DNA from: Trypanosoma brucei
Taxonomy: Eukaryota
DNA: 64,000 nt
Reading direction: 5' to 3'
Assembly (NCBI GenBank): GCA_000002445.1
Contig: CP000066.1
Coordinates: 1,120,001 to 1,184,000, forward strand
Shown: piece by piece, positions 10,201 through 64,000 of the stretch
How the letters are laid out: the number at the start of each line of letters is the position of its first letter
Numbering within the stretch: the stretch's first letter is position 1
Notes under the pieces: model-generated
What the model was told of the DNA's origin: nothing
The model's input: the letters and a program-made list of their open reading frames with translations, nothing else
The model's database searches: none
Position numbers and translations under genes: made by a program

Positions 10201-13200
10201 CGCTTCCTGCAGGTGCTGAAGCAGCAACTGATCAGCACCACCATGGGTTGCTACCCGAAAGAGTGCCCTAACGTGGCCCTTTGCGTTACTCCTCCTTATG
10301 AGGCTTCGCTCACACATCGGCTTCGACGTTGCCGATAAACCCCCAGCGTTGTGTGCACGAAGGGCCAGGCTTAACCCGATGCCGGGCTCGACCGTGCCGT
10401 ACGTCGGCTGTTCAACGATGAAACGCTCGGCATGTTCCCGCAAGGCGATGGGGGAGCCTTGCTCTGCTAGCTGGGCCCAATGCACTGCAAAAGAGACGGC
10501 ATCACTCAACTGTTTTCGTCGTTCCGGGGATTCCGGATCCGCAGCGACGGCGGGGGGCTCCAACATTTGCTTTGATTGGCAGTAAAGCTCCACCTCTGCT
10601 GCACTTCCCTTTTCAAGCACGCCGATGACGTCCCACAGAAGTGGAAGAGCCTGGCAAGTCCCCACAAACGACGGGAAGGCTGATATAATTTTACTTAGTA
10701 TTTCTTTGGCGGAGCGCCTTACTGATTGAACGGCGAAACCATATAATAAGACGAGTTGTGGTACGTCCGCCTCGATCCGTTTCGCGGCCGTGTCGGGAGA
10801 CGTGGCTTTCAACGCTGAGAGATACCGATTTGTTGCAGCAGCCGTTAGGCACGACGTTGCTGCCCGGAAATCTGCACTAGCGTCGAACTCACAAATTTCG
10901 AACCGGTGGTACTGTGCAATAGTTGAGATGAAGCCGCAGGAAGCTCGGAGGATTTCGAGGGTTGCCAGCGCATGAAAAAGAAAAAGTTCAGAAAACGGCA
11001 ATCGGCGCCCCACCGACGATACACCAGGGCAGCAGTCTTCCAGGTATTGCAGCAACCCCTTTCTGTAAGGCTTTATGGCGTGGCTGTCAGTGCTGTAGTT
11101 GCGCAAATGACGTTCCAAAAGTTCAATATCACTCATGACCTGTTGGTAATCGGTGGATCGCATGCGCAAAAGCTGTGGTGATAAAGAGGCAAGGAGGCGC
11201 ACGCACTTCGTTTGGTTCCAAGACAACACGTACTCACCCCCACGGGGTTGCTTAACATCTGATGATCCCTCCGCACCTTTTCCCTCAGCTTGCGTTAGGA
11301 GCATCACCTTGGAAGTAAAGCCATAATACGTAAGCATCAGCCAATAGGAGCGCAGCTGGGCGGCGTCGCTGTCATCATAGAGTGGAAGACTCATGCTATT
11401 AGGCTGAATGCCACTGTGGTGCATGAAAGAGTCTGTACTTTCCAACTGCTTGAACCTCTGCACGTTATCACGGTAACTCTTGAGACACTGTACGTCTTTT
11501 TCAGGCAAAAGTGTGAGAAGCTGGCAGAGCAGACACAACGGTTGCAGGAACAGCGAAAGCGTCGCAAGGGCCACCTCGCTCATATCGGAACGCATATGGT
11601 GACCGTTCTGCGTTTCCTTCCCACCGTCAATGTTAGTGTCGTAAATAATCCCGGAGCCTGGCCACAAACAGTTGATCATGCATCGGAGGACCGAGTGTAG
11701 TAGGAGACGCAGTACCTTTCCCTCGTTGTTGATCGCCTCAACAAGAGGCGATTTGTTCCATTCATCGCCGGCATCGCCCGAAGCATTGTGGGGTAAATCT
11801 CGAAGCGCCTCACGGACCATCGCAAGGACACGATCATGGCAACGCCGAGTAAGGTGCCAAAAAGCGTCCGCCGTGACCTGTAGTTCGTTGCCTGGAAACT
11901 GTTTATTTGTATGCGACAATTCGATACACCGAGTGTGGGCTCGCAGAGTGTCCTCCACCGTATCAAACAGCAGCTGGGTGTACCGACGTAGACTCTCGTA
12001 AGGCAACGGATTGCACAACGAATGGTGCCTCGACAAGAGAACACGGTTCATCATCTCAAAGCACACAGAAAAGCGCAGCGATACGTCGACGGGACCTTGA
12101 TCCAAACGTCCCTCAACGTTACTCCCTGCTTCATCAGCACCGTCCCCCAACTGCTGCAACCCGTCATTTCGCGTTACAGCATCGTTGACCTCTGTGCTGA
12201 CAAGGGCGCGTATGTAAGCATTTGTGGCACACAGTCCCTGCAAGCAGAGCGCGGCGGTTCGGCTTCTCGTCTCCACATTGGATGATGTGGCAATTCCCAG
12301 ATTTCCCGCCCTTAAAATGCAACGAATGAGTTCATGTGTTACTTGTTCAACACCACCGTAAAATTTGTTGGAAAATTGTATTCTCCTCATTTTGGCCCCT
12401 AAGACCGAGAAGGGATGTGTACTTGTCGACAGCGCTCTGCCATCGGTGGATGCGACGAACGCCAGAACTTTTGCACTGTGCTCCGCAATATCTTGGTGAA
12501 GCGACACCACCGGCCCAGCCGTACCAATCGCGGCGAAAGCACTCTTGGGTAGGAGAAGAAACTTAACGATGTTGCCAATCACCCCGAGGCGAAGGGCGTC
12601 TTCCTCCATGGAGGGCACATACCCCGCATCACCTGAGCCGTTACCACGCTCGTGTTGTTGTCCGCTGTGCGCGTTGTGTTGGCAAGTGCTGTTGACTATG
12701 GCGTAGCACCGAATACGCTCCAGCTCCGCTTGGAGCAAGCTCACCACTACAGCACGCAGGCTGGTCCCATACAATACAAAACTACGATTTTGAACCTTGC
12801 CCCATTTGTCCTCAGAATCCTGAAGAACCGCCCAGACGCCTTCAATGAGCGTTTCGGCTTCGACAACCTCCCTTCGGTCAACAAAATTAGATATTGAACA
12901 GCAGGAAGTAGTTCCCCCATCCCCATTTCCCCCACTACGTGCTGCACTGTCGCCCGGACAGGAAATTGACATCGCAGTTTCCTTCAGCCACCCCATTAGA
13001 AGCCTCAGCGTAGCTGCCACTAATCGCGCCTGGATGCCCTCCCTTCGCTGGAGGCCCCTGAGTATATATTCCGGCCGTAACAGCGTTAGACACCAATAGC
13101 GCAATTTGGTATAGCAGACACCATGAACCGATGATAGTGCTTCCACAAGGTAACACAAAAGCTCCTTGTATGGAGGATCCCTTCGATGTGAGGATGTAAC

Positions 13201-14148
13201 GAGCGTATCCGTTAGGTTGTGCAGGTGCTCTATGAGCTCCGTGCCGAGATCCACGTTGCCGGCTTCTCCAGCGATGGCGATTCCCTCAAGCGCACCGAGT
13301 GCAATGGAGTTGTCTACGCACTCGTCTGCATTTGAGGGAATGCATTGAACGAGGAGTGGATCGACGACATGCGCCCCAAAACCCACTAAACCTTCCCTAC
13401 TCAACTCGACACTACCATCACCAACATCCTTGCCAGCATAAGTAGACGTGGGACAACCCGCCTTCTCCCTTTCCAACCCTCCGCTGCCACTGCTTGCATG
13501 CCGAAGGTGGATGCCACATGCAACAAGTGAAGAGACAAACCCCCGAATGTCAACCCCCAATGAAAAAGTTGTTGCGTTGAGCTGTTGCATAAGTGAGGTG
13601 TACAAAGAAACGCACTCCAGATAGAACGATTTTGTGCGATCAAATGGGAGTGAGCGGCACTCGACCGCTAGAGCCACAAGCGCGATTAGCACTGGAGCAT
13701 TCTTCCCAGAAATACGACCCTGTCCCGCAATCAAATCCTTCGCTTGTGACATCTCGAATAGCTGCGTTACTCGTGGGTGAAGCAACATGTAACCACTGTT
13801 GACAACCGAGAGGGCATGTGTGGTTGGCATGGCACCACCGTGCAGATGCTGGGGCATACTTACACTTGACAAAGAGGCCAACCATGGGTCTGTACGACTT
13901 CTCCCGAACAGCACATCCGCACCCGAATAGCCCTCTTGCATGCACGGGCCCAACAATTCCTCCCTCCCGGAGACGGCGAGCGGCGCGTCGCCCCACCTCG
14001 GACCTCCGCTACCGAGCGCAAGCGCCTGTGGCGAATTATCCGTTGCGGGGGTGTCTAGCGGTTGTCGACGCAGTTGGTAGCCAAGCACACGAGCAAAGGC
14101 GAATGCAGGAGAGTGGCTGACCCATGAGGGGAACCTGATGTCGTCCAT
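7210..14148 (-). CDS. phosphatidylinositol 4-kinase, type III alpha-like (2312 aa)
   Basis: ATG at 14146-14148 verified. The C-terminal catalytic domain has the PI3/PI4-kinase signature motifs GDDCRQD (catalytic loop) and HIDFGFLF (DFG/activation loop). The lipid-kinase accessory region (...LSEYFVQTYGYPESVRF...) and a very long N-terminal HEAT/armadillo-like region are as expected for the approximately 2000+ aa PI4KIII-alpha class. Confidence 0.9.
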   Translation of the reverse strand: MDDIRFPSWVSHSPAFAFARVLGYQLRRQPLDTPATDNSPQALALGSGGPRWGDAPLAVSGREELLGPCMQEGYSGADVLFGRSRTDPWLASLSSVSMPQHLHGGAMPTTHALSVVNSGYMLLHPRVTQLFEMSQAKDLIAGQGRISGKNAPVLIALVALAVECRSLPFDRTKSFYLECVSLYTSLMQQLNATTFSLGVDIRGFVSSLVACGIHLRHASSGSGGLEREKAGCPTSTYAGKDVGDGSVELSREGLVGFGAHVVDPLLVQCIPSNADECVDNSIALGALEGIAIAGEAGNVDLGTELIEHLHNLTDTLVTSSHRRDPPYKELLCYLVEALSSVHGVCYTKLRYWCLTLLRPEYILRGLQRREGIQARLVAATLRLLMGWLKETAMSISCPGDSAARSGGNGDGGTTSCCSISNFVDRREVVEAETLIEGVWAVLQDSEDKWGKVQNRSFVLYGTSLRAVVVSLLQAELERIRCYAIVNSTCQHNAHSGQQHERGNGSGDAGYVPSMEEDALRLGVIGNIVKFLLLPKSAFAAIGTAGPVVSLHQDIAEHSAKVLAFVASTDGRALSTSTHPFSVLGAKMRRIQFSNKFYGGVEQVTHELIRCILRAGNLGIATSSNVETRSRTAALCLQGLCATNAYIRALVSTEVNDAVTRNDGLQQLGDGADEAGSNVEGRLDQGPVDVSLRFSVCFEMMNRVLLSRHHSLCNPLPYESLRRYTQLLFDTVEDTLRAHTRCIELSHTNKQFPGNELQVTADAFWHLTRRCHDRVLAMVREALRDLPHNASGDAGDEWNKSPLVEAINNEGKVLRLLLHSVLRCMINCLWPGSGIIYDTNIDGGKETQNGHHMRSDMSEVALATLSLFLQPLCLLCQLLTLLPEKDVQCLKSYRDNVQRFKQLESTDSFMHHSGIQPNSMSLPLYDDSDAAQLRSYWLMLTYYGFTSKVMLLTQAEGKGAEGSSDVKQPRGGEYVLSWNQTKCVRLLASLSPQLLRMRSTDYQQVMSDIELLERHLRNYSTDSHAIKPYRKGLLQYLEDCCPGVSSVGRRLPFSELFLFHALATLEILRASCGFISTIAQYHRFEICEFDASADFRAATSCLTAAATNRYLSALKATSPDTAAKRIEADVPQLVLLYGFAVQSVRRSAKEILSKIISAFPSFVGTCQALPLLWDVIGVLEKGSAAEVELYCQSKQMLEPPAVAADPESPERRKQLSDAVSFAVHWAQLAEQGSPIALREHAERFIVEQPTYGTVEPGIGLSLALRAHNAGGLSATSKPMCERSLIRRSNAKGHVRALFRVATHGGADQLLLQHLQEAGEDLVKTFGLSKQLREQQFVTLTNALSGEIGVDDFSRGCQGGEAEDTVHRGSWTSTCTPPSGQTLSDKLHESDTLACSAVVLLTSARLGTSMHISLLRCIVQYPIRSFSSDALAKAISCWRWILFERPGLFAAPLLAEVVEGFVWTITHRVGLFDGSRPRGLDEVESGRKPQLRRDAAIYSHDYATNSPHKLLAEFLIACYVDEGGPVSFVPPVLHLLKQLALRIVKTPSRLSTKDASFSEMTRCVLMIGLICRNLQAANECRAREGLPALTPAFFVGALRQGFYRCLMHWFQKTPPSWYFSRDRTAAEKELAALRKLMEMLDRDMKALSRSSDGFLDFASPEKSADSTLVNLTLVGSVAQRRIGEDIAGGTFTDIESLIAAERERLMSLIRLLQLLVKHEHHRLLVWLHPSDSLSTPSRDYFDAISSGEWLSHCTAASESDPAVLVALVARFPNRHVVGWAAQIVSENPELYCNIPGAVDLYLNSVTLVNGYPALHLFRNGGLVQSLRHLHARYATRYPQVSAYALRSLLCKKCDSLTFYLPQILQILSEDPIGAVPSFLKKMCKRSQTFEHQLLWSLQAEGGGDSEHARKCSQLASEIRHSFNASRKAFHDGEFNFIDRIISLSGEMMPIERPLRKGRLRLRLRDKEFHDSIGGQHLYLPTDPNWRIVALRPDTAGAMQSAAKCPIMVEFHCVPQNSRDGENAQGEATGSDKEAVTSKLCIFKMGDDCRQDQLALQLIGLFRRVFDSIQLPSFLYPYKVVATGRDCGVIECVPRAMSRDQIGKLVEGNLSEYFVQTYGYPESVRFHRARECFIRSMASYATASFVLNIKDRHNGNILIDSYGHLVHIDFGFLFDLSPGGDINFESSPFKLTLEMAQLMGYPVNEGKGKQPSPSLAKALVDLESYNLFVDLTIRCFLAVRQYAHEICVLVELMLSSGLPCFKPKKTIHDLSWRLAMHKSEAWAADFMRKRIAESRENVRTVLYDRYQNYAEGIEM

Positions 14149-15384: not shown

Positions 15385-18300
15385 CTATTCAAGTGGCGGT
15401 AGGTCAGTATAGGTTGGTGAGCGTGCAATGGCGTCCGCAAGATCCTGTTCAAACAAATTTTCCAGAGCACGTAAAGAGGCGATGTGGAGGGCTTGCGCCC
15501 TCGTAAGTGCCGCACCAAACCCCACCAATTGCACCTCGCCCTTCCTTGTTTCCCTCCTATGCCTCTGTAAGTAAATGCGGCACTGAAATCCACCACCGTT
15601 GCTCGGCTGTTGCTCGACACGCAGCCAGCGCTCATTGCGAAACTCCCGAGTAACACACCGTCGCAAAAGTGTGTAAGGCCGAGGAGGACCTGCCGACTCT
15701 GCTCGCTCAAGTTGACGCTGGAGGTCTCGCAAAACGGCTGCTGGCAACACTTCCACCACTGGTGCCGTAAGTATTTCTTCAGCAAAGGAATGAATCTCCT
15801 TGGAGTGTGCTGAAAGATACGTCAGTGCTCTTGGGAAGCTCTGCCGACATGCGAGAAGCAGCACGTCACGCACCCCCTCGCGCTTTGACGTGGCGACTGC
15901 CCGCGCAACCGCCAAACCCCCCGCCCTCGAGAAGGAAAGAGTCACGAACCAATACCCTCCAAGCTCCCTTGCATCAATATCAACCACCTGTTGCTCCACC
16001 GTGGAAGGTGATGCTCCATCGTCCTCAATGGCAGTAGCAGTGCCGGTAGACACACCAAAGAAGGTGTTGAACATGTAGAGCGAAAGTTCACGCGAATTGG
16101 TTATGGGTGGGGGGGCGTGGCACTCATATTCTGTCCACAACTGTTCACCCTTGTCGCCAGCTAGTCGGTTCGTGGCCGCCCTCAGCGCACTACACAGCAC
16201 ACATGCAGCGCTCTCGCCCTCCTCACCAATACGTTCGCTGACAAGCAAGTCACCTTTCTGGCCACATACAGCGGCACGAAAGCGGGCACGGAATGGTCGC
16301 AGCAGGTACTCGACACTTCCATCGTTCCCCGCCTCCTCTTCAGCGCCATCCGATTCCTGCTGCTCCAAACTCCATGTGAAAGGGGCCATGCTTGGCGCTT
16401 GTTCCTCCAACAGCAGCATAACCTGGTGGACGAACGATTCCGACCCAACTCGAAACACAGAGTTGTACACGTTTTGTGCATCCTGGTCGGGATTCACTGC
16501 GTCGCCACGGTTCAGCTTCGCGTACGCCTCAAGTTCCTTTGGAAAGTACCTTTTTGCGAGCGAATAAACGAGGACACGTCGGGCATGTTTAACCTGCGGA
16601 TACGGAGGTGACACGGCGACGACACGCCGCTGCTCTTCACCCTCCACCTGCGCCTCCATCTCCGCAACCCACTGGGGAAGACCCAAGTCACCTGATGCGT
16701 TGCGTAACCTCACCCTCAAGTTGTGCCACCCCAAATCTTCCTCGGCAAAGGCAGAAACAAGCGAAAAAATGTTTCCCATATGCTCCACTCGCTTTTCACG
16801 GGGAAGAGCCCGAAATTTGCTTCCACGAGCCATTGTATCTCCAGAAAGATCAATATCTGGGTGCAACAACAGTGCATCACGGTACTGATTGGGGAAATTT
16901 TCCCTCAGTGCGTCAAGGCAAGCATTGCGCCACGCCTCACCCCTCTTCCTTGCGCGCCGCTCAATTAGAAGCTGATTCGAACGCAAACCATCATCAACTG
17001 TAAGCACTGCTGTGGCTTCGCCCGTGGCACGGTCAGTGTGATAAGTTGTCTGGTAAAAACTTCCAATGAGCTGCGAGGTTAGGGTTCCCAGGAGTGCATA
17101 GGCATTCCATTTCCCACGGTGGTTGGTAGCCACGTTGTAATTGTCATGTTTTTGAACAGCGAGGCTTAGAAGTTGCGTAGTTGGGAAGAAAACACCCCCG
17201 CCTCGTGGATCGAAGTAAACGCGACCCACCTCGGGGTACTGGTCAAGAAGGTACGTAAGCGCCTGCACATAGCAGTCAAACTCGAGGCGATAACGACCAG
17301 GACCGCTTTGCTGCCAAACAACACACCCATCTGACGTGAAGGAAGCGGTAAAGAAGTATCGATGCTTTCCGTGTGGCACGCCCTGATCACCGTCACCGTC
17401 CTTCGGCGCGGTAGAAATATCCCGTTCCTTGTCATCGCCAGCACCATCACCCTCAACACGCACCAAAGCAATATCCTCCGTTTTCTTTCCATATTCCCGG
17501 GAGAGGTGCTGCACCATCGCATCAAACTGCCAGCGCATCCGAACGAGGAGCGGCGAGGATGGGAGAAGCTGAGTGGCGATGTTTGCATCGGGCGAGAAAG
17601 TTAACTCAGCCCGTAGTGCCTGCAACGATGCGTTTTGATAGGCAACTAATGGTGTGGCCTGCCGCTTCACCTGGTGAACGCTTATGTTTCCCCGTGCGTC
17701 CTCCACGGTAACGGCAGCAGTAAATGTTGCCGCCCGAAGCACACGGTACTGTTCCTCTACGGGAATGGGCTCTGTTGGCTCAGCTCCCTCCCCGTGGCAC
17801 GTGACCGGTGATGGTGATGATGGCGACGGAGTTTCCTGGTCATGCCTCTGGGAGTCACCTTTTTCTTTTTCCAACGAACCCTCAGTGCATTCCTCGAAAC
17901 AATGGCTTTCCACAATTTTCTCCCAAGGCCGTACGAGGACCTCAACCTCACGGACGCTTTCCAACTGAACAGAAGGTGACTCCAATTCCGCACGGTAGCG
18001 ATCACGCAGCATCGCCAGGCAACGCACCAACGAGTCGTTTGCGGATTGACCACGGGCCTCTGCGCTGAAGGAAAGGGAGGGCGTCATGCCCCATTCATCA
18101 CGCTCATAGGCACGGCACCGCCACCTCAAATCTGCCCCTTGTTCTGATTCTTGCCCTTGCTTCCCAGAGGAGTTCCGCGGGGACTTAATAGAAAACTTAA
18201 GCACTCGGCTAAAGTGAACACACAACTCTCTCAGTTCATCGATGATTGCTTTAAGCTCCAATTGACGTGGCGATAGCGTCGGCTCTTCCTTGCCTTTACG

Positions 18301-19041
18301 ATAGCTACCTCTTTTTTGATATCCGCGGTTACGTCCCGTACCGCGGCACCCATGCGATGAAGCGGAGGCCCTTTGCTGTGGGTGAATAAAAACTACGTCG
18401 CTTTCTAACGCATCATTCAGCACCGCGTGCAAAACTTCCTTTGCCTCGCCTCCGCTCGCCACCGCTAGCTCTAAGGGGAAGCCTAGCAAACGACACGTAG
18501 CGGATGCTCGGTATTCCGTGACACCACACAGTTGCTGCTCTTGCTTTGATTGTTCTTCTGAATCAAATGAAGCACCCCCTCCTACGGGTTCGTCGTCTTC
18601 TACAACCTCTTCTTCTTCCTCACCGTGTGGAGCTGCCTTGGTTGAATTCCTCGAGTGGCGCCGCTGGCAACGCCGGAGCACAAGTTTGGCCTGCGGGCCA
18701 AACCTTTCCCGCAACAGCGCCTCCGCTTCTGGGAGTCCACAACCACCGTTGTCCGTGCCCACTTCTTCCACTGTTTCACCTGCAGTAAATAACTGCCGGC
18801 GCCCGTGAAGGAGGCAATCGGTCATCGGTGCCGTCACGAGTGGCAGATGAGAGCGCCTGATGGATGGGCTTCGAGTGGAACAGCTCACAGCTGCAGGACA
18901 CGTGTGGGGGGACAAGGTGCGTAACAAAGCGTAACTACGGTTCCCTACGAAGGCCCACGAACAGATGTTGTGCGGTGTGATCAGGGGCAAGAAGGCCCTC
19001 CTTCGCACAAGCGTGCTAAAGGTCATGGTGCACCTCTTCAT
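15385..19041 (-). CDS. large hypothetical protein with at least three dsRBD-like modules and an N-terminal mitochondrial-presequence-like segment
   Basis: The track ORF (to 19242) starts at TTG and first runs through a polypyrimidine-encoded FCFFFIFYFLPP stretch. The first ATG is about 19041 (MKRCTMTFSTLVRRRAFLP..., Arg/Ser-rich amphipathic). The C-terminal half contains repeated helices of the type G-x-G-x-S/T-K/R-[KR]-x-A...AA..AL (ERRARKRGEAWRNACLDALREN; ATSKREGVRDVLLLACRQ; VGFGAALTRAQALHIASLRALENL). Confidence 0.55.
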   Translation of the reverse strand: MKRCTMTFSTLVRRRAFLPLITPHNICSWAFVGNRSYALLRTLSPHTCPAAVSCSTRSPSIRRSHLPLVTAPMTDCLLHGRRQLFTAGETVEEVGTDNGGCGLPEAEALLRERFGPQAKLVLRRCQRRHSRNSTKAAPHGEEEEEVVEDDEPVGGGASFDSEEQSKQEQQLCGVTEYRASATCRLLGFPLELAVASGGEAKEVLHAVLNDALESDVVFIHPQQRASASSHGCRGTGRNRGYQKRGSYRKGKEEPTLSPRQLELKAIIDELRELCVHFSRVLKFSIKSPRNSSGKQGQESEQGADLRWRCRAYERDEWGMTPSLSFSAEARGQSANDSLVRCLAMLRDRYRAELESPSVQLESVREVEVLVRPWEKIVESHCFEECTEGSLEKEKGDSQRHDQETPSPSSPSPVTCHGEGAEPTEPIPVEEQYRVLRAATFTAAVTVEDARGNISVHQVKRQATPLVAYQNASLQALRAELTFSPDANIATQLLPSSPLLVRMRWQFDAMVQHLSREYGKKTEDIALVRVEGDGAGDDKERDISTAPKDGDGDQGVPHGKHRYFFTASFTSDGCVVWQQSGPGRYRLEFDCYVQALTYLLDQYPEVGRVYFDPRGGGVFFPTTQLLSLAVQKHDNYNVATNHRGKWNAYALLGTLTSQLIGSFYQTTYHTDRATGEATAVLTVDDGLRSNQLLIERRARKRGEAWRNACLDALRENFPNQYRDALLLHPDIDLSGDTMARGSKFRALPREKRVEHMGNIFSLVSAFAEEDLGWHNLRVRLRNASGDLGLPQWVAEMEAQVEGEEQRRVVAVSPPYPQVKHARRVLVYSLAKRYFPKELEAYAKLNRGDAVNPDQDAQNVYNSVFRVGSESFVHQVMLLLEEQAPSMAPFTWSLEQQESDGAEEEAGNDGSVEYLLRPFRARFRAAVCGQKGDLLVSERIGEEGESAACVLCSALRAATNRLAGDKGEQLWTEYECHAPPPITNSRELSLYMFNTFFGVSTGTATAIEDDGASPSTVEQQVVDIDARELGGYWFVTLSFSRAGGLAVARAVATSKREGVRDVLLLACRQSFPRALTYLSAHSKEIHSFAEEILTAPVVEVLPAAVLRDLQRQLERAESAGPPRPYTLLRRCVTREFRNERWLRVEQQPSNGGGFQCRIYLQRHRRETRKGEVQLVGFGAALTRAQALHIASLRALENLFEQDLADAIARSPTYTDLPPLE

Positions 19042-20038
19042 GTCATTGTGGGGTGGCAAAAAATAAAAAATGAAAAAAAAACAAAAAAGAGAGTGTGTGA
19101 CAGAAGTATGGAAACATTGAATAAAAGGAATAAATTCAAGTGGACGACACACAGAACGAGAGAGCGCCAACCACAAAGGGTGACTAGAAATGAAAGTGTG
19201 TCTGGAACGCGACACAGCGGAACCGTAATGGGGTATTCTCAAAAAAAAAATAGCTGGACAAACTGCCGTTAGTACAAAAATTGAGTCGTCTATGTGCCTT
19301 AGTATGCAGCGCCCTTCCCTTTCGTTTTACCCCACCTTATTCGCCCCTAAGCCCCGTTTTCTTTACCTAATTTTTTCCCCTTTTTCTCTCTTTCCAATCC
19401 ATCCTCTTACCACACAGTATTGTACGCTCAGTCAGCGATTACCGTGGCGCATAACTACCCCTTCCACATCTACACGCGACGGTAAATCGTACATCAACAC
19501 AGAAGAACAATAAAGAACAACGACAACGAAAATAAAATGACCACGCGTGCTAAAGCCGCTGCGACACAAATATATATATATATATATAAAGTACGGAGCT
19601 GCACCTACATACTCATGTCCTTCCTTTCATGTGTGCTGGTGTGCTGTGGCACCTCCCATTGGGGATACGTGTGCGTTACGTTTTACTCCAAACGCCCGTG
19701 GGACGACATGCTTTAGGTGGTAACGTCACTCAGGAGGAGGCAAATAATTTTTTATTTGGCCTTCTTTTCTTTTTCACCCTCTCATTCACACACAACGCCA
19801 AGGAACGCTGTTAATCCCTTCTCTGAAAAGAGTCAGCACGCGCAGCCTACACACAAGCATAGAGCCTACCCCCTCAATAAAAGGGAGAGGGATGGAGGAA
19901 ACGAGATCACGTATTGACTGTAGCCACGGATTTCCGATGAGTTATGCCGCTGGCCTCTCATTCTTTCCTCTTCACTCTGTTTCCTCCTCCCTTTTCTCCA
20001 TCTCCCCTATCTTCGTTCCCTTTGCGCACTGCCACTCC

Positions 20039-28264: not shown

Positions 28265-30052
28265 CTACTGCTGCGCTGCTCCGCCACTGTGTGAGCCCCC
28301 TTCATTTGGCTGCCCCGCATCCTCTGTAACAGGAGCAGCGACACCACTCATCTCATCAGCTGGCTCATTACACCTGTTCTGCTCAGCATTAATGAAACGC
28401 GAAAATCTGAAGTGGACAATCGCTGCAGCGATTACTGCCACAATATTGACACCCATCAGTATGAGCATCTGGTTTTTGACACACGAAGGGTTTTTACACT
28501 CGGGTTTCGTACCAAGCTTCTCAGCCTCAGCATCGTACATACCACCGAACATGAAGAGGTTGAGCGCTATCGTTGACACAATTCCGGAGGAAAAGCCGAA
28601 GTTATAGTGCTTTCCCAAATCCTGTGAATACATTATACGAAACGCAAGCACAACACTTCCCCAACCTGCTCCGTTACCCAGCGACCCAAGGAAGAAAGGA
28701 AGGATCAGCGCGTTAGCGGGAAGCAACGCGAAGAGCAGGAAGGCGATGCACAACATCAGAGGGCAAAATGGGAGCGCAATTGTTGTGGGAAACGTTTTAA
28801 GCCCCTCTCGCTGCCGCCGTGTCAGCACCATATCCAGATATCCCATAGACATGCGACCAACAGCACTGCCAACAGATATCATGGTGATATACAGTGTTAG
28901 AGTGGAGCTTTTCTTCTCACCGTAACTTTTGCTCTCATAAATTTGTGCAGCGTTCATCTGCATGACGACCGCAGTACCCCACACGCCGAAGCATGTAAGC
29001 CACATGCACCAAAGATCCACGGTAAGCAAGTGCTGCCAGAAGGACCCGCTGTACTGCGGCAATGGCTTCACCTCGTTCTTCGTTGTAGCTACCGCTGATT
29101 CGGTCACAACATCCTCCAGTGCCTCTCCAATTGTGTCCATATCCGTAGGGCGCACTGGAGTATATCGTCCAAGCCATTGAAACGGCAACGCAACGACACA
29201 AAATGATGCCATCATGAGCACTGCAATAATCGAAAAGGCCAAATAGGCAGCCGGAGGAAGCTTTACATATCCACCAATGAGTGATTGTGTGGTGAGAAAC
29301 AACAGCAGGCTGAGGACGAGTCCCACAGCTGTCTTCATCCTTCTGGGAGGCGCAGGCTGGTTCATGTATAACTGAAGTGTCTGCTGTCGCTTCGTCCACT
29401 CCTCTTCACTTAGCCGTTGCTTCCGCCACGCACAAGGAAAGTACATGGGAAGCCGAATGAGAACGAAGGCAATGAGTGACACGACCACCAACTGTATGGC
29501 AACAAAGTACGCGAAACCCGAGTAGTTGTTTTTTTCCACATCATCGGATGTGGTATCCTTAAACCACCCGTTGAAGTAAGCCATTAGCACTCCGGTACCG
29601 AGACCACCAATTGTCTTGGACACGAGCACAATGTAACCCCTGTCAAGTGGAAACTGCAGCATCAGTGGCATAACAGAACTTACATCCAAGATAGGAAATG
29701 CACAGTATACAAGGGCATTAAAAAAAGACAAAAGGCCAACGCCTGGACTCGCTATCTTTCTGTCGAAGGTGAGACCAAAAAGCAGGAAGCCCAAGAATCC
29801 AAGGAAACCAGCAATTGGCAGGACCACCATCGGACCAGCGTAATCGAACAGGGCGCCGCTGGGAAAACTGAAATACATAATGCAATTGCCAACGGTACTG
29901 ATAGTTGTAACTTCAGTTTGTGTTAAATTGAGTTTTTTCTTCAGGAATGGCGTGAAAATCGAAAAGCAGTATGCCTTTGAGACACCCAACTCCGCATACA
30001 TGCCTGACATCAGCATCCGCATACGGGCAAGGTCATCGACAAGGTAAACCAT
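28265..30052 (-). CDS. nodulin-like major facilitator superfamily membrane protein, array copy A (595 aa; N-term type alpha, C-term type long)
   Basis: ATG verified. About 12 predicted TM segments. The N-terminal domain matches the Nodulin-like pattern (Y-x-F-S...L-x-L-[ST]-Q-[ST]...ISTVG...G...G-x-L-x-D...P). C-terminal tail ...VTEDAGQPNEGGSHSGGAAQQ. Confidence 0.8.
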   Translation of the reverse strand: MVYLVDDLARMRMLMSGMYAELGVSKAYCFSIFTPFLKKKLNLTQTEVTTISTVGNCIMYFSFPSGALFDYAGPMVVLPIAGFLGFLGFLLFGLTFDRKIASPGVGLLSFFNALVYCAFPILDVSSVMPLMLQFPLDRGYIVLVSKTIGGLGTGVLMAYFNGWFKDTTSDDVEKNNYSGFAYFVAIQLVVVSLIAFVLIRLPMYFPCAWRKQRLSEEEWTKRQQTLQLYMNQPAPPRRMKTAVGLVLSLLLFLTTQSLIGGYVKLPPAAYLAFSIIAVLMMASFCVVALPFQWLGRYTPVRPTDMDTIGEALEDVVTESAVATTKNEVKPLPQYSGSFWQHLLTVDLWCMWLTCFGVWGTAVVMQMNAAQIYESKSYGEKKSSTLTLYITMISVGSAVGRMSMGYLDMVLTRRQREGLKTFPTTIALPFCPLMLCIAFLLFALLPANALILPFFLGSLGNGAGWGSVVLAFRIMYSQDLGKHYNFGFSSGIVSTIALNLFMFGGMYDAEAEKLGTKPECKNPSCVKNQMLILMGVNIVAVIAAAIVHFRFSRFINAEQNRCNEPADEMSGVAAPVTEDAGQPNEGGSHSGGAAQQ

Positions 30053-30300: not shown

Positions 30301-30561
30301 TAGCGTTTCTAAACTGTCGTGCAGAAAAGAATGAAGTAAAGGTAGGACCGTTGTAGGAAATATATATTTCGTGAATTTGTTAAAAGAAAAAAAAACAACA
30401 TCATAAAAAACGACAGATGGCAACACTACTCATGATAATGAAGCCGCCATTAAAAAAATAATGAAAAAAAAATAACGGTACAACGAAGTTTTGATTATAA
30501 AAGAAACCAAGCATAAAATATAACCCTACTGCACTCCCGTAATGTCACCGTGGTCACCTCC

Positions 30562-59907: not shown

Positions 59908-62900
59908 TCACTCAAGAAGCCCAGACTGCACGATATGTGCCAGGTTGTGCTCCGCGCTTAGCAGAGTGTCCACCGCGCGCTGTAGCTCTGCCGGTAGTGG
60001 CCTCAATCCACTCCAATGTGATTTTGCCGCGGCCCTAAGCTCTAGAAGTGTACTAAGGGATTCAGACCCACGCGTAACAACGGGAACGAAGCCATCCACC
60101 ACCGCTAAACCCGGCACATCATCCATGACGGCCAAAGTGCGAGGGTCATTGCAACATGCACTGGCCAACAAAAGCGCAAACGGGGTGGTAAATACTCCAA
60201 ACACCGGTTGGATCATACAGTGAGTGTCCCCACTAGTTGGAATCTTGTCAAACGCGGCAAAACAAGGAAGCGAACTGTAGACGCGGCTGGATGCAGTGGC
60301 GCCAGCGCCGGCAGATCCATCTCCGCTTTTTGCCACCACCCCGCCCCGCGGCTGACTAACACCACAAGAAACAAGCAGAGGGGGCGGCACACGCACGTTC
60401 AGAACCCTCTTCAGATCCTTAGACTCCACTGTGACCTGCGACGTCGCATTATGAGCTACTGCCCTCTTCTGTACGAAAGCGCGCGGGAATGAGGCAAACG
60501 TAACAGCGAGGCGCAGTCGACCCTCCCGTGACGGCGCAAGTCCGTCTGTTAACGGTTGGCATAACGCTTCCGCTGTGGGAATAGGCGAAGAGGTAAGAAG
60601 TACCCTGAGAGGGTCGAAGGCGGGCACACTTGCCTCAACGTGCTCAACTAATCGCCGCAGCCTTGGGACTATAATGTTAAGGAAGCGCTGCGCATCCTCA
60701 CTGAGAGCCGGCAACATAAGCTCAAGTACGTCATAACCACCAACCTCACCTCCACGACACGAGGAGCGGTGGCCATCAACAATTGACCCGCGGCCTGTTA
60801 GTGAAGATAACACTAGTGCTAGCACTCGAAGGCAGAGGTGTTGACAGTCCATCAAGAATCCAGCAAGGAGCAACTTGGCAAATTGCAGCGGCAGCGCGCC
60901 ATTCACTGACACCTGCTCACCACCATGTTGGGGAAGCGGCGGTGGCACGCAAGCTGCTAGAAGCGATAACGCCACTGTTATTAGATTAACTCCCTCAGCA
61001 TCGCCTTGCGATCTGCGCTCCAAATCCTCAGGGGAAGTGAGACCCATGGAAATGAAAAGATTGCGTGCGGCAGAAGGGAGTGTAAGAGGTTTGGGCGAGG
61101 TAAGTAATCCGAGTTCGCATTGAACCGCTGAAAGAAGCAACTGCAGTTCCTGTGAATCAAAAAATCCTTCCCCCCTTCGCAGAGATTGAACAAGTTGGGC
61201 ATATTGCTCCGTTCGTGGTTTCGAAGGAAAGGGGATTTTATGCTCCGAGAGGAGTGCGTGAAGAGGTCCAATAAGCTTCCCTTCATCAGCGACGTGAGAA
61301 GCGCCTTCAACTCTCAACTGCGGGTGGGACCGGAACATCTGTGCAGTCGCCTGAAACGCCGACTTCAACTGAAGCTGTTTAAATAGCTCGGCGATGGCCC
61401 TGTTCCTTGATTCTTCCTCGTTGTCGCAATACTCGCCTTTACCTGTCATGCGCAGACCGCTCTCATCTTCCATTTCCAACAGCGTGATAAGCGTCACCTG
61501 AGAAGATGGGCCAGTTGTAGCACGCTCCTTTACCATCAAGCGCAATGGTTTAAACGGCGCATGCAACACCGTGTAAAGTGCCATGACGGACAGCTTACCG
61601 CGAGGTGTAAAGTCACGGAGGGAGGAATCGTATATATCCTTGCTCTGATTCCGCAGTATCACACGCTTACTGTCGGTTACGCCGTCCGGCAGACGGCTAT
61701 TTTTTATAACACCAACTATGTATTCATAATGCATAGCGGCACGCGCCACAGATTCGTACCCTTCATCTCCCGCACCACGTGCCACAAAGTGGGTACCTAA
61801 AATTGGTTGCTCCACGAGGTACCGTCGGTTCGGTACCCTTCCGTACACTTCAAAGCGAAATGAGTACGGAGGTGGTGAAGGAAGTCCAGAGGCAGCACAC
61901 TTCTGGGGCAGTTGAGACCTGGCATTTGTGAAGAGCGGAAGGGCTTCGACGATATCAAGACCGGTGTCCTCTAGCTCCACACCACTCCTGGGAGCTCTCT
62001 TCTGTTCAAAAAGCGCATCGAAAATTAGGTGTTCTTTGCACCTCTTTATGTATGCGCGGCAGGCGGTGAGGTAACTTCCCCACACGAATGGCTTCCGACA
62101 CTCGGACCGCGGTGGTACCGTAGGCACCACTGGCTTCTCCTTATGCATATCGGGAAGACTCTTCAGTCCTGGCGGGGATTCTGTGTTGGCGGGCATCAGC
62201 GGGTCACCAGGCATGGGGGCCGGCCGACCCCTCCGACGTGCATTTCCAGCAAACTCCGCTTGCCTTGAACCACTGTAAACGGGCACGCCGAGAGCACCAA
62301 GCGTAAAGATAGCGTGCATGCAACATAAAGTATAGGCCTCCTTCTTCGTAGAGGCGCAGCCAACTGCATGTCGGCGGCCGAACTGTGTTGGTAGAGGAAT
62401 TTCAGCAATGGCACGGTGCACAAACCCATGGAGAGGGCTGCTGACATTGTACTGTCTTGTTACGCGGGAGACATCGACACCCATTCGTCGGCAATAAAAG
62501 TCGAAGAGACGCGGCGCGGTCTGAAGGATATCCGACGAATGCACTGACACTAACTTCGACAAATCGCACAATGTGTCGTCTTTTAGGTCAACGGAAGTAG
62601 GTGCACTCGGGGCCATCGTACTTCCCATGCTTGGAGTGCTTGACGTGACGTCGGGGAGACGTTGTGAGGGCGGAGGCGACTCCATCGCCGGCATTTCTTC
62701 CTTCGGTACAGATTCCCGCATCTTCGTTGTCGCCTCTTTTGAAAGTCGCGCCCACAGGCACGACTTTTCGTGCTCTTTACGCACGGGTGGGGGAATACAA
62801 ACAATTTGTCGTCTCTGTCCAGGTCCGAGCGGTGCCCAGCGCCCAAGGAGAGCTGCCGCACCGCTGTGTTTCTTCTGCAAGGCTGGAAGATCGTACATCG

Positions 62901-64000
62901 CAACCCCAATCTCGTCCAGAACGAGTTCAGCATGTACGGCGCACATCACCATCGCCTCGTCCTCCCTGTACGCCTCTCCGTGAGCCACTACACATTCAAA
63001 TGTTTCAGGCACTGGCAACACAGCCTTGCATATCCAACGCTTCAGTCCCTCATCAGCGTCGCTACTGACAGTAGTTTTCAACACACTCTCAAGCCGCTTG
63101 CCGTGCCGCTCCAGGTAGTCCCTCAAGCGCACTATGGCAAAGCGATCCGATTGCCTTACCGAAGGGAGCGTGTGCACGTAGTTACGTCCTTCTTCCACGT
63201 TTGTGTTTGGGTTGACAATAATATAACCATCGGCATCAGGCTTTAACGACCAGTCACTCTTCGGTAGCTCCGCACGTGCCCGCTGCAGTCGCGACTCTTC
63301 CGTGCCCATGAAGTTAGCTTGCTTCCCTGTGCCCCCTGATCCCTTGGTGAGGCACCGGGCTGGTGAAAGTCCAGGAACCATGATGCGACCAACGTGACTC
63401 ACCACATAGCGATACGGCGGCGGCAGCTTCGTGCTACGTGTGAGGTTCTGAGGAGCCTTTCCTTCATGAGACTGATTTTCTGGCTCACTGCCCAAAGGTC
63501 TGTTCAGGACCTCGAGGACGTGGAGAGCATGCATTGAGGCAGCAGTCTCCGCCTCTAGCTCCGATGTCCCTATTCCTATGGCCACGAAGGATGGTAGCAG
63601 TTCATCCGCATCACCGGCCATTACTTTTTGGTCTTTGTTTTCCTCCTCACTCCCCCTCACGGGGGTCACTGGCACCGTCACCGTGGCGCGATAGACGTGG
63701 TGATCTTTTATTCCAAGGGCTTCCACAAAAAATGGTGAGGCCGCGCTGCCGTGGCAGGTCCCGTGCTGGGTTATATAATCCATAAACTTGCGACGAGCGG
63801 ATAGAACAAGTGCGTCTAACTCCGTTACGTGAGTATAATTTTCAATTGCCTTGGCATGGCTCATGAGGAGCGACTCCAGCGAGGCTGCCACATCACCCGA
63901 GGCCACCTCGTCTGCCTCTTTGGCTAACTGTAATGGTGGAGGTGAAGGTCTGTCATAATGATACTCGCAGTCGTCCGGTCCACAGCACCACCGATTTACT
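59908..64000 (-). CDS. very large protein (>=1360 aa) with at least five dsRBD-like helix motifs; 5' end lies beyond the window
   Basis: The reading frame stays open from 63906 to the window edge (no stop in ...VNRWCCGPDDCEYHYDRPSPPPLQLAKEADEV-ASGD...), and the track 'start' at 63906 is a GTG. Repeated motifs: IGIGTSELEAETAASMHALHVLEVL; VAHGEAYREDEAMVMCAVHAELVLDEIG; VGCASTKKEAYTLCCMHAIFTLGALG; VARGAGDEGYESVARAAMHYEYIVGVI; MTGKGEYCDNEEESRNRAIAELFKQLQL. Confidence 0.55.
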   Translation of the reverse strand, partial: VNRWCCGPDDCEYHYDRPSPPPLQLAKEADEVASGDVAASLESLLMSHAKAIENYTHVTELDALVLSARRKFMDYITQHGTCHGSAASPFFVEALGIKDHHVYRATVTVPVTPVRGSEEENKDQKVMAGDADELLPSFVAIGIGTSELEAETAASMHALHVLEVLNRPLGSEPENQSHEGKAPQNLTRSTKLPPPYRYVVSHVGRIMVPGLSPARCLTKGSGGTGKQANFMGTEESRLQRARAELPKSDWSLKPDADGYIIVNPNTNVEEGRNYVHTLPSVRQSDRFAIVRLRDYLERHGKRLESVLKTTVSSDADEGLKRWICKAVLPVPETFECVVAHGEAYREDEAMVMCAVHAELVLDEIGVAMYDLPALQKKHSGAAALLGRWAPLGPGQRRQIVCIPPPVRKEHEKSCLWARLSKEATTKMRESVPKEEMPAMESPPPSQRLPDVTSSTPSMGSTMAPSAPTSVDLKDDTLCDLSKLVSVHSSDILQTAPRLFDFYCRRMGVDVSRVTRQYNVSSPLHGFVHRAIAEIPLPTQFGRRHAVGCASTKKEAYTLCCMHAIFTLGALGVPVYSGSRQAEFAGNARRRGRPAPMPGDPLMPANTESPPGLKSLPDMHKEKPVVPTVPPRSECRKPFVWGSYLTACRAYIKRCKEHLIFDALFEQKRAPRSGVELEDTGLDIVEALPLFTNARSQLPQKCAASGLPSPPPYSFRFEVYGRVPNRRYLVEQPILGTHFVARGAGDEGYESVARAAMHYEYIVGVIKNSRLPDGVTDSKRVILRNQSKDIYDSSLRDFTPRGKLSVMALYTVLHAPFKPLRLMVKERATTGPSSQVTLITLLEMEDESGLRMTGKGEYCDNEEESRNRAIAELFKQLQLKSAFQATAQMFRSHPQLRVEGASHVADEGKLIGPLHALLSEHKIPFPSKPRTEQYAQLVQSLRRGEGFFDSQELQLLLSAVQCELGLLTSPKPLTLPSAARNLFISMGLTSPEDLERRSQGDAEGVNLITVALSLLAACVPPPLPQHGGEQVSVNGALPLQFAKLLLAGFLMDCQHLCLRVLALVLSSLTGRGSIVDGHRSSCRGGEVGGYDVLELMLPALSEDAQRFLNIIVPRLRRLVEHVEASVPAFDPLRVLLTSSPIPTAEALCQPLTDGLAPSREGRLRLAVTFASFPRAFVQKRAVAHNATSQVTVESKDLKRVLNVRVPPPLLVSCGVSQPRGGVVAKSGDGSAGAGATASSRVYSSLPCFAAFDKIPTSGDTHCMIQPVFGVFTTPFALLLASACCNDPRTLAVMDDVPGLAVVDGFVPVVTRGSESLSTLLELRAAAKSHWSGLRPLPAELQRAVDTLLSAEHNLAHIVQSGLLE

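What the first reader, a model, noticed from the sequence alone, without database searches (positions are those of the whole stretch)
15385..19041. Two giant proteins in the same polycistron built from repeated dsRBD-like helix modules
Both the 1285-aa ORF (15385-19242) and the >=1360-aa ORF at the window edge (59908-64000) contain multiple copies of a motif resembling the C-terminal alpha-helix of double-stranded-RNA-binding domains (G-x-[GA]-x-[ST]-[KR]-[KR]-E-[AG]...A-A-x-x-A-L-x-x-L). Examples are VGCASTKKEAYTLCCMHAIFTLGAL, ERRARKRGEAWRNACLDALREN and VGFGAALTRAQALHIASLRAL. The 15.4-19.2 kb protein also has an Arg/Ser-rich N-terminus typical of trypanosome mitochondrial presequences. Large multi-dsRBD proteins are unusual. 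In kinetoplastids they might relate to mitochondrial RNA editing/processing or to RNAi. I do not recognise either as a named protein.
Basis: inference. Interest (0 to 1): 0.55.

Follow-up and report, generated by a model that had tools for sequence, protein, structure and literature searches.

The report
Two mitochondrial multi-dsRBD proteins of trypanosomes
Two large, unnamed Trypanosoma brucei mitochondrial proteins are built from tandem double-stranded-RNA-binding-domain folds (nine in one, at least five in the other), and proteomics places both near the mitochondrial RNA editing and processing machinery, so they are good but still untested candidates for new RNA-handling factors.

Summary
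The window is T. brucei TREU927 chromosome 3.

**Protein 1** (15385-19041, minus strand, 1218 aa) is Tb927.3.4030 / UniProt Q57WD9.
- It has no Pfam hit and no sequence match in the PDB.
- An AlphaFold2 model built on a 40-sequence alignment (mean pLDDT 80) shows nine tandem alpha-beta-beta-beta-alpha modules behind a basic, acid-free N-terminus.
- Profile comparison links modules M5, M6, M8 and M9 to each other. M8 also links to Pfam-validated dsRBDs (E 1e-5).

**Protein 2** (59908-window end) is the C-terminal 1363 aa of Tb927.3.4210 / Q580M1 (1809 aa).
- The whole protein matches Pfam dsrm at E 2.8e-12.
- It has five mutually homologous dsRBDs, three of them inside the window.

The two proteins are not specific paralogues.

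Published proteomics places both in mitochondria. BioID and TurboID detect them near mitochondrial RNA editing and processing baits. No paper in the searched library discusses Tb927.3.4030 in its text, and Tb927.3.4210 is mentioned once, as uncharacterised.

RNA binding and any role in editing are inferred, not shown. This is a new member of a known kind, of moderate interest.

The parts
15385..19041 (-). Protein 1 coding sequence (1218 aa plus stop) = Tb927.3.4030 / Q57WD9. TriTrypDB starts it at the second Met (window 19026; 1213 aa, 135.25 kDa).
   Evidence: Identical to P0038 / XP_843995.1. The mass computed from Met6 is 135.25 kDa, as listed for Tb927.3.4030 / Q57WD9 in PMC5436138. TriTrypDB length of 1213 aa is quoted in PMC6329795 suppl..
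18832..19041 (-). Basic, acid-free N-terminus (about 70 aa): probable mitochondrial presequence.
   Evidence: 10 K/R, 0 D/E, 17 S/T, pI 11.7. pLDDT below 50. TargetP-positive and in the mitochondrial proteome set. The cleavage site was not determined.
18403..18738 (-). Module M1 (aa 102-213): alpha-beta-[48-aa disordered acidic loop]-beta-beta-alpha.
   Evidence: DSSP of model mf13583be2a8e: H42-54 E59-66 E115-125 E128-137 H140-153, model numbering +60. hhalign M1-M8 48-62%. No conserved basic patch.
17983..18270 (-). Module M2 (aa 258-353): alpha-beta-beta-beta-alpha.
   Evidence: H198-217 E220-226 E247-254 E263-271 H274-293, pLDDT mostly 80-96. No sequence-level link to dsRBD.
17599..17961 (-). 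Module M3 (aa 361-481): alpha-beta-[54-aa disordered loop]-beta-beta-alpha.
   Evidence: H301-313 E316-324 E379-387 E393-401 H404-421. Loop length.
17239..17550 (-). Module M4 (aa 498-601): alpha-beta-[32-aa loop]-beta-beta-alpha.
   Evidence: H438-457 E465-471 E504-510 E513-520 H523-541, pLDDT above 90 in the structured parts.
16897..17103 (-). Module M5 (aa 647-715): compact dsRBD-like module holding ERRARKRGEAW. It has a conserved basic cluster at the beta3-alpha2 junction.
   Evidence: H587-599 E603-609 E616-622 E630-637 H640-655. Four positions are basic in at least 70% of 33 homologues. hhalign: 48% / E 1.9e-4 to the dsRBD profile of protein 2, and 91-94% to M8 and M9.
16546..16770 (-). 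Module M6 (aa 758-832): dsRBD-like, with conserved K/R-x-x-R-R at the start of alpha2.
   Evidence: H698-710 E712-721 E731-739 E745-750 H757-772. Three conserved basic positions. hhalign 87-91% to M8 and M9.
16162..16434 (-). Module M7 (aa 870-960): alpha-beta-beta-beta-alpha, acidic (pI 4.6).
   Evidence: H810-821 E829-835 E860-867 E872-878 H885-900. pI. No sequence-level link.
15838..16095 (-). Module M8 (aa 983-1068): dsRBD-like, holding ATSKREGVRD. It gives the best sequence link to bona fide dsRBDs.
   Evidence: H923-935 E960-967 E970-977 E983-990 H993-1008. hhalign against the Pfam-validated dsRBD profile of protein 2: 81.9%, E 1.1e-5. Three conserved basic positions.
15454..15678 (-). 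Module M9 (aa 1122-1196): C-terminal dsRBD-like module (VGFGAALTRAQALHIASLRAL), very basic (pI 11.3, net +8).
   Evidence: H1062-1074 E1079-1086 E1092-1099 E1110-1118 H1121-1136, pLDDT 76-96. hhalign 34% / E 4.3e-4 to the protein 2 dsRBD profile and 87-94% to M5 and M6. Charge. It is probably the region behind UniProt's 'DRBM domain-containing' name (inference).
59908..63999 (-). Protein 2, C-terminal 1363 aa plus stop of Tb927.3.4210 / Q580M1 (1809 aa in NCBI; 192.82 kDa from Met40). The N-terminal 446 aa, holding dsRBDs D1 and D2, lie beyond the window.
   Evidence: The mass matches PMC5436138. Whole-protein Pfam dsrm is E 2.8e-12, 47.5 bits.
63493..63882 (-). Protein 2 dsRBD D3 (aa 486-615 of the full protein).
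   Evidence: hhalign against D1/D2/D4/D5 gives 46-97%. Pfam dsrm alone is E 0.12.
62893..63162 (-). Protein 2 dsRBD D4 (aa 726-815).
   Evidence: hhalign 98-99% to D1, D2 and D5. No Pfam hit when scanned alone.
62275..62541 (-). Protein 2 dsRBD D5 (aa 933-1021), holding VGCASTKKEAYTLCCMHAIFTLGAL.
   Evidence: Pfam dsrm E 3.8e-4, 21.4 bits, over in-window residues 498-564. Scanned alone it gives E 2.9e-3. hhalign 98% to D1, D2 and D4.
61369..61941 (-). Protein 2 candidate modules D6 (aa 1133-1211) and D7 (aa 1243-1323). These are dsRBD-like by eye only.
   Evidence: hhalign D6 against D3 is 19%, and D7 is below 3%. No Pfam hit.
59911..61368 (-). Protein 2 C-terminal region of about 485 aa, of unknown fold.
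   Evidence: No Pfam family at E <= 10 (protein 8). No PDB sequence match.

Best explanation
Protein 1 (Tb927.3.4030) is a nuclear-encoded protein found throughout kinetoplastids and imported into the mitochondrion. Behind a basic presequence, the mature chain is essentially a string of nine very divergent dsRBD-fold modules. They are joined by short helical linkers, and M1, M3 and M4 carry long disordered acidic insertions in the beta1-beta2 loop.

Protein 2 (Tb927.3.4210) is a second, unrelated mitochondrial protein. It has five clearly homologous dsRBDs of the type also found in the editing helicase KREH2/REH2, two further candidate modules, and a C-terminal domain of about 485 aa of unknown fold. 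It has no recognisable helicase core.

Proposed mechanism (inferred, by analogy with Staufen, TRBP and Loquacious): a subset of modules binds A-form duplex RNA. In protein 1 the candidates are M5, M6 and M8, which keep a conserved basic cluster at the beta3-alpha2 junction, and the highly basic M9. The degenerate or acidic modules (M1-M4, M7) would act as protein-contact or spacer domains. Each protein would then be a multivalent adaptor that holds or coats duplex RNA in the mitochondrial matrix. Likely substrates are guide RNA:mRNA hybrids and sense:antisense precursor duplexes. The adaptor would tether these to the RNA processing and editing complexes.

Shown here: gene identity, fold, number of modules, conservation, and the lack of paralogy between the two proteins. 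Taken from papers: mitochondrial location and proximity to RESC, MERS1, KPAF4, KPAP1 and GRBC2. Inferred: RNA binding, which modules bind, the substrates, and the role.
For: Identity:
- Searches give exact sequence, UniProt accession and mass matches to Tb927.3.4030 and Tb927.3.4210.

Fold of protein 1:
- The AF2 model has mean pLDDT 80.1 and shows nine alpha-beta-beta-beta-alpha units.
- Foldseek top hits are TARBP2 (E 1e-4, probability 1.0) and DGCR8, then Dicer partners and MLE dsRBD1-2.
- The same picture already appeared with the poorer first model.

Homology:
- hhalign gives M8 against the dsRBD profile of protein 2 at E 1.1e-5, M5 at 1.9e-4 and M9 at 4.3e-4.
- M5, M6, M8 and M9 mostly match each other at 87-94%.
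- UniRef names protein 1 'DRBM domain-containing'.

Candidate RNA-binding surface:
- Basic positions are conserved in M5 (4), M6 (3) and M8 (3).
- M9 has net charge +8.

Protein 2:
- Pfam dsrm scores 47.5 bits for the whole protein.
- D1-D5 are mutually homologous.
- Precomputed Pfam annotation lists PF00035 and PF26536 in all orthologues.

Conservation:
- The library search found 39 family members, one of them clustering with a Bodo saltans protein.

Location and partners:
- PMC5436138 supplements.
- PMC11381364.
- PMC6329795 TAP and BioID tables.
Against: - No experiment shows RNA binding by either protein.
- Protein 1 fails Pfam dsrm, both as a whole and module by module. Its profile finds no dsRBD in PDB sequences.
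- The canonical GPxH loop was not seen in the beta1-beta2 loops printed. Most modules lack the KKxAK-type basic helix start.
- The purifications in which the proteins were seen are large ribonucleoprotein preparations with hundreds of preys. Tb927.3.4030 was not found in the stored part of the RESC TurboID tables.
- The fold searches do not report which module matched which target.
Confidence: 0.6

Rival explanations
1. Protein 1 is a pure protein-protein scaffold. Its nine modules are 'type B' dsRBD folds that have lost RNA binding, like Staufen dsRBD5 or TRBP/Loqs dsRBD3. It organises a mitochondrial protein complex, and its presence in RNA-processing pull-downs comes through protein partners or is incidental.
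Against: M5, M6 and M8 keep family-wide conserved Lys/Arg exactly at the beta3-alpha2 junction, and M9 has net charge +8. The protein is seen in BioID or TAP of four RNA-processing baits. In known multi-dsRBD proteins at least one domain binds RNA (established knowledge).
Confidence: 0.25
2. Protein 1 is a mitoribosome biogenesis or rRNA-binding factor rather than an mRNA/gRNA factor, analogous to the dsRBD-containing mitoribosomal protein mL44.
Against: No chain in the PDB matches protein 1 by sequence, although T. brucei mitoribosomes and their assembly intermediates have been solved (my knowledge). The protein is not ticked in the 'Mitochondrial Ribosomes' column of the PMC5436138 reference table. 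The baits that recover it are mRNA-processing factors.
Confidence: 0.1
3. The repeated 'motif' is coincidental Ala/Leu-rich helices and there is no dsRBD fold.
For: The literal consensus occurs 0 times in protein 1. Pfam finds nothing in protein 1. A shallow-alignment self-comparison was not significant.
Confidence: 0.02
4. The proteins work in cytoplasmic or nuclear RNA interference.
For: The fold matches are dominated by Dicer partners.
Against: Both proteins are in mitochondrial proteomes, are TargetP-positive and are reduced on ATOM40 knock-down. They are biotinylated by matrix RNA-processing baits. No RNase III, PAZ or helicase domain was found.
Confidence: 0.02

Closest known systems
Staufen (Drosophila Staufen, human STAU1/2)
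   Different: Staufen has four or five dsRBDs that Pfam recognises and it is cytoplasmic. Protein 1 has nine, none of them recognised by Pfam, and it is mitochondrial and restricted to kinetoplastids. No detectable sequence homology to Staufen was found.
TRBP / PACT / Loquacious / R2D2 / DGCR8 (Dicer and Drosha partner proteins)
   Same: Two or three tandem dsRBDs. These are the top Foldseek matches, spanning several consecutive modules (TARBP2 E 1e-4 over 337 columns; DGCR8 2.2e-3 over 250 columns).
   Different: They are small proteins tied to RNase III enzymes of the RNAi/miRNA pathways. No such link exists here, and the compartment is different.
KREH2 (REH2), the T. brucei mitochondrial RNA editing helicase with N-terminal dsRBDs
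   Same: Same organelle and same process neighbourhood. Protein 2 and all its orthologues carry the Pfam family named after the REH2 dsRBD (PF26536, precomputed) and are named 'REH2 DRSM domain-containing'. REH2 and protein 2 appear in the same GRBC2 BioID list.
   Different: Protein 2 has no detectable helicase, HA2 or OB domain. Protein 1 has no specific similarity to protein 2. I could not fetch the KREH2 sequence, so no direct comparison was made.
Bacterial RNase III and mitoribosomal protein mL44
   Different: No RNase III catalytic domain was found in protein 1 (no Pfam family at E <= 1), and protein 1 matches no solved chain by sequence, mitoribosomal ones included.

Membership tests
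dsRBD fold (Pfam PF00035 dsrm / PROSITE DRBM) | alpha1-beta1-beta2-beta3-alpha2 topology in a unit of about 65-70 residues | tested here: met
   Nine such units in protein 1 in a model with mean pLDDT 80.1. Three of them have long loop insertions. Protein 2 was not modelled.
dsRBD fold (Pfam PF00035 dsrm / PROSITE DRBM) | Three-dimensional similarity to experimentally solved dsRBDs | tested here: met
dsRBD fold (Pfam PF00035 dsrm / PROSITE DRBM) | Sequence match to the family profile above the curated threshold | tested here: not met
   Protein 1 gives no Pfam hit, whole or per module. Only indirect links exist: hhalign M8 against the protein 2 dsRBD profile at E 1.1e-5 and UniRef's 'DRBM domain-containing' label. 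Full-length protein 2 does meet it (47.5 bits against 23). Its in-window part alone scores 21.4 bits, just under the threshold.
dsRBD fold (Pfam PF00035 dsrm / PROSITE DRBM) | Conserved dsRNA-contact motifs (alpha1 Glu/Gln, GPxH-type beta1-beta2 loop, KKxAK-type start of alpha2) | tested here: inconclusive
   A conserved basic cluster at the beta3-alpha2 junction is present in M5, M6 and M8 only. No GPxH motif was seen in the beta1-beta2 loops printed. M1, M2 and M9 have no conserved basic residue there.
dsRBD fold (Pfam PF00035 dsrm / PROSITE DRBM) | Binding of double-stranded RNA | not testable with these tools
   Needs gel-shift or CLIP experiments.
KREH2/REH2-type dsRBD proteins (Pfam PF26536) | Match to PF26536 | tested here: inconclusive
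   Listed as a precomputed domain for protein 2 and 24 relatives, but my own Pfam scan of P0013 returned only PF00035. The model may be missing from the local copy.
KREH2/REH2-type dsRBD proteins (Pfam PF26536) | DEAH/RHA helicase core with HA2 and OB domains | tested here: not met
   No helicase, HA2 or OB family in full-length protein 2 or in its C-terminal 490 aa. Protein 2 is therefore not a KREH2-like helicase.
RNase III family | RNase III catalytic domain | tested here: not met
   No Pfam family at E <= 1 in protein 1, and only dsrm in protein 2.
Mitochondrial matrix protein of T. brucei | N-terminal presequence, detection in mitochondria, dependence on the ATOM import channel | tested here: met
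   N-terminal composition. In PMC5436138 both proteins are in the mitochondrial proteome set and are TargetP-positive. Abundance ratios after ATOM40 RNAi are 0.79-0.82 for protein 1 and 0.68-0.86 for protein 2. This is literature evidence, not my own test. The sub-mitochondrial location was not checked.

The most novel reading that the evidence does not exclude
Tb927.3.4030 and Tb927.3.4210 could be missing, dedicated duplex-RNA handling factors of kinetoplastid mitochondria. Their long arrays of dsRBD folds would coat or measure extended guide RNA:mRNA or sense:antisense duplexes, so that these are handed to, or protected from, the helicases (KREH2, KREH1) and the 3' processome. The nine-module protein would then be a new kind of 'duplex ruler or clamp' that couples editing progression to mRNA 3' processing.
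Probability: 0.2. Interest if true: 0.7.

Novelty: new member of a known kind. Interest (0 to 1): 0.45.

Why it matters
U-insertion/deletion editing and guide-RNA biogenesis in trypanosome mitochondria run on RNA duplexes. These are gRNA:mRNA anchors that grow as editing proceeds, and sense:antisense precursor pairs. Apart from the helicase KREH2 and the RNase III-type endonucleases, few dedicated duplex-binding proteins are known there (my knowledge).

This analysis shows that two abundant, conserved, uncharacterised mitochondrial proteins consist largely of dsRBD folds. Both turn up next to RESC, the polyadenylation complex and the MERS1 complex. That gives concrete candidates and concrete residues to mutate: the basic clusters in M5, M6 and M8.

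Nine tandem dsRBD folds in one chain is more than in the multi-dsRBD proteins I know of (my knowledge, not surveyed). None of the nine is seen by Pfam, which shows how much of this fold family stays hidden in divergent eukaryotes. Both proteins were found only among kinetoplastids and unassigned metagenome sequences. Whether they are essential was not assessed.

Tried and rejected
Searches on protein 1 that found nothing:
- Pfam on the whole protein and on nine separate segments.
- PDB sequence searches with the single sequence and with the family profile.
- Pfam on nine distant homologues (only a Dicer_dimer hint at E 0.041).

Comparisons that found nothing:
- BLASTP of protein 1 against protein 2 gave no similarity, so the paralogue idea was dropped.
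- hhalign self-comparison and module matrices on the 12-sequence alignment showed no significant internal repeats. The signal appeared only after 21 more distant homologues were added.

Structure and homologue searches:
- The first AF2 run on a 13-sequence alignment was poor (mean pLDDT 48). Its fold hits pointed the same way but could not have stood alone.
- The third homologue search, run with the alignment, added only one sequence.
- Two representative-library submissions failed on length limits.

Ideas considered and dropped:
- A solved mitoribosome or assembly-factor protein: there is no PDB sequence match.

Literature:
- Searches for Tb927.3.4030, the old gene IDs and the UniProt accessions found no paper text.
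- The 2026 editing review mentions neither gene.
- In a kDNA-loss screen, Tb927.3.4210 is marginal (logFC 2.3, FDR 0.108) and Tb927.3.4030 is not listed. No conclusion was drawn from this.

Full report
**What is there**

The window is Trypanosoma brucei TREU927 chromosome 3.
- The 2312-aa ORF at 7210-14148 lies next to protein 1. I take it to be phosphatidylinositol 4-kinase alpha, Tb927.3.4020, from its position and its PI3/4-kinase sequence motifs read by eye (gene ID from PMC7595295; no Pfam scan was run on it).
- Every ORF of 200 aa or more that looks like a gene, from 7 kb to the window end, lies on the minus strand. This is the usual trypanosome directional gene cluster. Co-transcription there carries no functional meaning (established knowledge).
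- The finding's ORF is real. It runs 15385-19242 if counted from an upstream TTG (1285 aa) and 15385-19041 from the first ATG (1218 aa).
- That translation is identical to XP_843995.1 / UniProt Q57WD9.
- The second ORF is open from the stop at 59908 to the window edge, 1363 codons. It is the C-terminal three quarters of the 1809-aa XP_844013.1 / Q580M1.
- The supplementary tables of Peikert et al. 2017 give Tb927.3.4030 = Q57WD9 = 135.25 kDa and Tb927.3.4210 = Q580M1 = 192.82 kDa. The masses I compute from the second Met of protein 1 and from Met40 of protein 2 are 135.25 and 192.82 kDa. The gene identities are therefore settled.

**Checking the observation**

The consensus as written is not a repeat, however. 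Used as a pattern it hits protein 1 zero times and protein 2 once.

Sequence methods at first saw nothing in protein 1:
- No Pfam family, for the whole protein or for nine separate segments.
- No PDB chain, by sequence or by family profile.
- Only E 0.15-0.5 for internal similarity on a 12-sequence alignment.

Protein 2 is easier:
- The in-window part has one dsrm hit just under threshold (21.4 bits against 23).
- The whole protein passes clearly (47.5 bits, E 2.8e-12).
- All 25 relatives carry the precomputed domain PF26536 and all but two also carry PF00035; PF26536 is the family behind the UniRef name 'REH2 DRSM domain-containing protein'.

**Structure of protein 1**

The first AlphaFold2 run used 13 trypanosomatid sequences and was poor (mean pLDDT 48).

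An exhaustive HMMER search of the 50%-identity representative library found 39 family members. One clusters with a Bodo saltans protein. The more distant ones come from unnamed metagenome contigs.

With a 40-sequence alignment the model reached mean pLDDT 80.1, with 608 of 1158 residues at 90 or above. Its secondary structure is a regular series of nine alpha-beta-beta-beta-alpha units:

| Module | Residues | Note |
|---|---|---|
| M1 | 102-213 | 48-aa disordered, largely acidic beta1-beta2 loop |
| M2 | 258-353 | |
| M3 | 361-481 | 54-aa disordered loop |
| M4 | 498-601 | 32-aa disordered loop |
| M5 | 647-715 | |
| M6 | 758-832 | |
| M7 | 870-960 | |
| M8 | 983-1068 | |
| M9 | 1122-1196 | |

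The units are separated by short helical linkers (loop lengths).

Two independent fold searches agree on what these units are.
- Foldseek ranks TARBP2 first (E 1e-4, probability 1.00, 337 aligned columns, i.e. several consecutive modules). DGCR8, DCL4, R2D2, Loqs-PB and MLE dsRBD1-2 follow.

**Homology, not only fold**

With the deeper family alignment (33 sequences), profile-profile comparison becomes informative.
- M8 matches a profile built from the Pfam-validated dsRBDs of protein 2 at 82% probability, E 1.1e-5.
- M5 matches it at E 1.9e-4 and M9 at E 4.3e-4.
- M5, M6, M8 and M9 mostly match one another at 87-94% (M5-M6 and M8-M9 are weaker, 18-39%).
- M1 matches M8 at 48-62%.
- M2, M3, M4 and M7 are dsRBD-like by structure only.

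Within protein 2, D1, D2, D4 and D5 match each other at 98-99% and D3 at 46-97%. D6 and D7 remain candidates. D1 and D2 lie outside the window.

Protein 1 and protein 2 show no specific similarity (best BLASTP E 0.26). They share a domain superfamily and are not paralogues.

**What the modules might do**

In the 33-sequence family alignment, Lys/Arg is kept in at least 70% of sequences at the beta3-alpha2 junction in three modules. This is where canonical dsRBDs carry the KKxAK motif that contacts the RNA backbone.

| Module | Conserved basic positions | Local sequence |
|---|---|---|
| M5 | 4 | ERRARKRGEAW |
| M6 | 3 | VKHARR |
| M8 | 3 | RAVATSKRE |

- M9 has no such cluster but is very basic overall (pI 11.3, net +8).
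- M1, M3, M4, M7 and M8 are acidic overall.
- No GPxH-type loop was seen in the printed beta1-beta2 loops.

The pattern resembles Staufen or TRBP, in which a few modules are RNA-competent and the rest are degenerate and probably serve as protein contacts or spacers. This is inference.

**Where the proteins are and what they are near (literature)**

- Both proteins are in the mitochondrial reference set of Peikert et al. (earlier mitochondrial proteomes plus TargetP).
- Both fall after knock-down of the import channel ATOM40. Ratios are 0.79-0.82 for protein 1 with 27-47 peptides, and 0.68-0.86 for protein 2 (PMC5436138).
- Wackowski et al. 2024 describe Tb927.3.4210 as an uncharacterised mitochondrial protein. 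It was more enriched in RESC6 and RESC8 TurboID than any known editing or processing protein (PMC11381364).
- In the supplementary tables of Mesitov et al. 2019, Tb927.3.4030 appears in KPAF4 and KPAP1 tandem-affinity purifications and in MERS1 and KPAF4 BioID. Tb927.3.4210 appears in GRBC2 and MERS1 BioID. Their values are similar to those of REH2, MRP1 and the PAMC proteins in the same lists (PMC6329795).
- These preparations hold hundreds of proteins, so the data show neighbourhood and not function.
- No paper text in the library mentions Tb927.3.4030, and a 2026 review of the editing complexes mentions neither gene.

**Verdict**

The RNAi alternative, the paralogue idea and the idea of a solved mitoribosomal protein are rejected.

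The best explanation has two parts. Both proteins are multivalent duplex-RNA adaptors in the mitochondrial matrix. In protein 1, M5, M6, M8 and perhaps M9 would bind RNA, and the other modules would hold partners.
- I put about 0.9 on 'mitochondrial multi-dsRBD-fold protein'.
- I put about 0.5 on 'binds duplex RNA and acts in RNA processing or editing'.
- The combined explanation gets 0.6.

The main rival is a pure protein scaffold (0.25).

The kind of protein is known and the databases already hint at dsRBDs, so I class this as a new member of a known kind. Two features are not described in the searched literature and are directly testable: the nine-module architecture, which Pfam does not see, and the convergence of two such proteins on the editing and processing neighbourhood.

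Noticed in passing
window 28265-39289 (minus strand): Tandem array of five genes alternating 595 / 583 / 595 / 585 / 595 aa. The two I scanned (one of each length class) match Pfam Nodulin-like (PF06813, E 1e-8 to 7e-8), i.e. putative MFS-type transporters. The alternation suggests a duplicated two-gene unit.
   Followed up: partly
window 2646-3507: A G+C-rich 70-bp unit repeated 12.3 times at 98% identity, lying between the small ORFs at the window start and the PI4K gene. The surrounding 2-4 kb has an unusually strong positive GC skew (+0.295). It does not resemble what I recall of the AT-rich VSG-associated 70-bp repeats. Function unknown.
   Followed up: no
window 39820-39886 (minus strand): H/ACA snoRNA TB3Cs2H1 (Rfam RF01545, 91 bits, E 2.6e-17), just downstream of the transporter array. 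It is the only Rfam hit in the window.
   Followed up: no
protein 2 (P0013) residues 257, 448, 832 and about 1036; in-window copies at 63982-63996 and 62830-62844: Each of the dsRBDs D1, D2, D4 and D5 is followed by a conserved tail of the form Q..H.E.A...GRWAP.PGD...P(S/T)PP.L. The repeated unit of protein 2 is therefore larger than a dsRBD. I do not know what the tail does or whether KREH2 shares it.
   Followed up: partly
protein 1 residues 127-174, 385-438 and 532-563 (window about 18520-18663, 17728-17889, 17353-17448): Three of the nine modules (M1, M3, M4) carry 32-54-residue disordered insertions, largely acidic or Ser/Pro-rich, in the beta1-beta2 loop. In canonical dsRBDs this loop contacts the RNA minor groove. 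The insertions vary in length and sequence between species.
   Followed up: partly
window 59908-63999 (Tb927.3.4210), literature: In a genome-wide RNAi screen for kinetoplast DNA loss (PMC13191291), Tb927.3.4210 is listed with logFC 2.3, P 0.014, FDR 0.108. This is marginal. Tb927.3.4030 is not in the stored list.
   Followed up: no
window 40791-46095 region (Tb927.3.4130 and Tb927.3.4140 by numbering; exact ORFs not assigned): Two further 'hypothetical conserved' genes between the two dsRBD proteins are also in the mitochondrial reference set of PMC5436138. The 690-aa and 561-aa ORFs there have no Pfam family.
   Followed up: no
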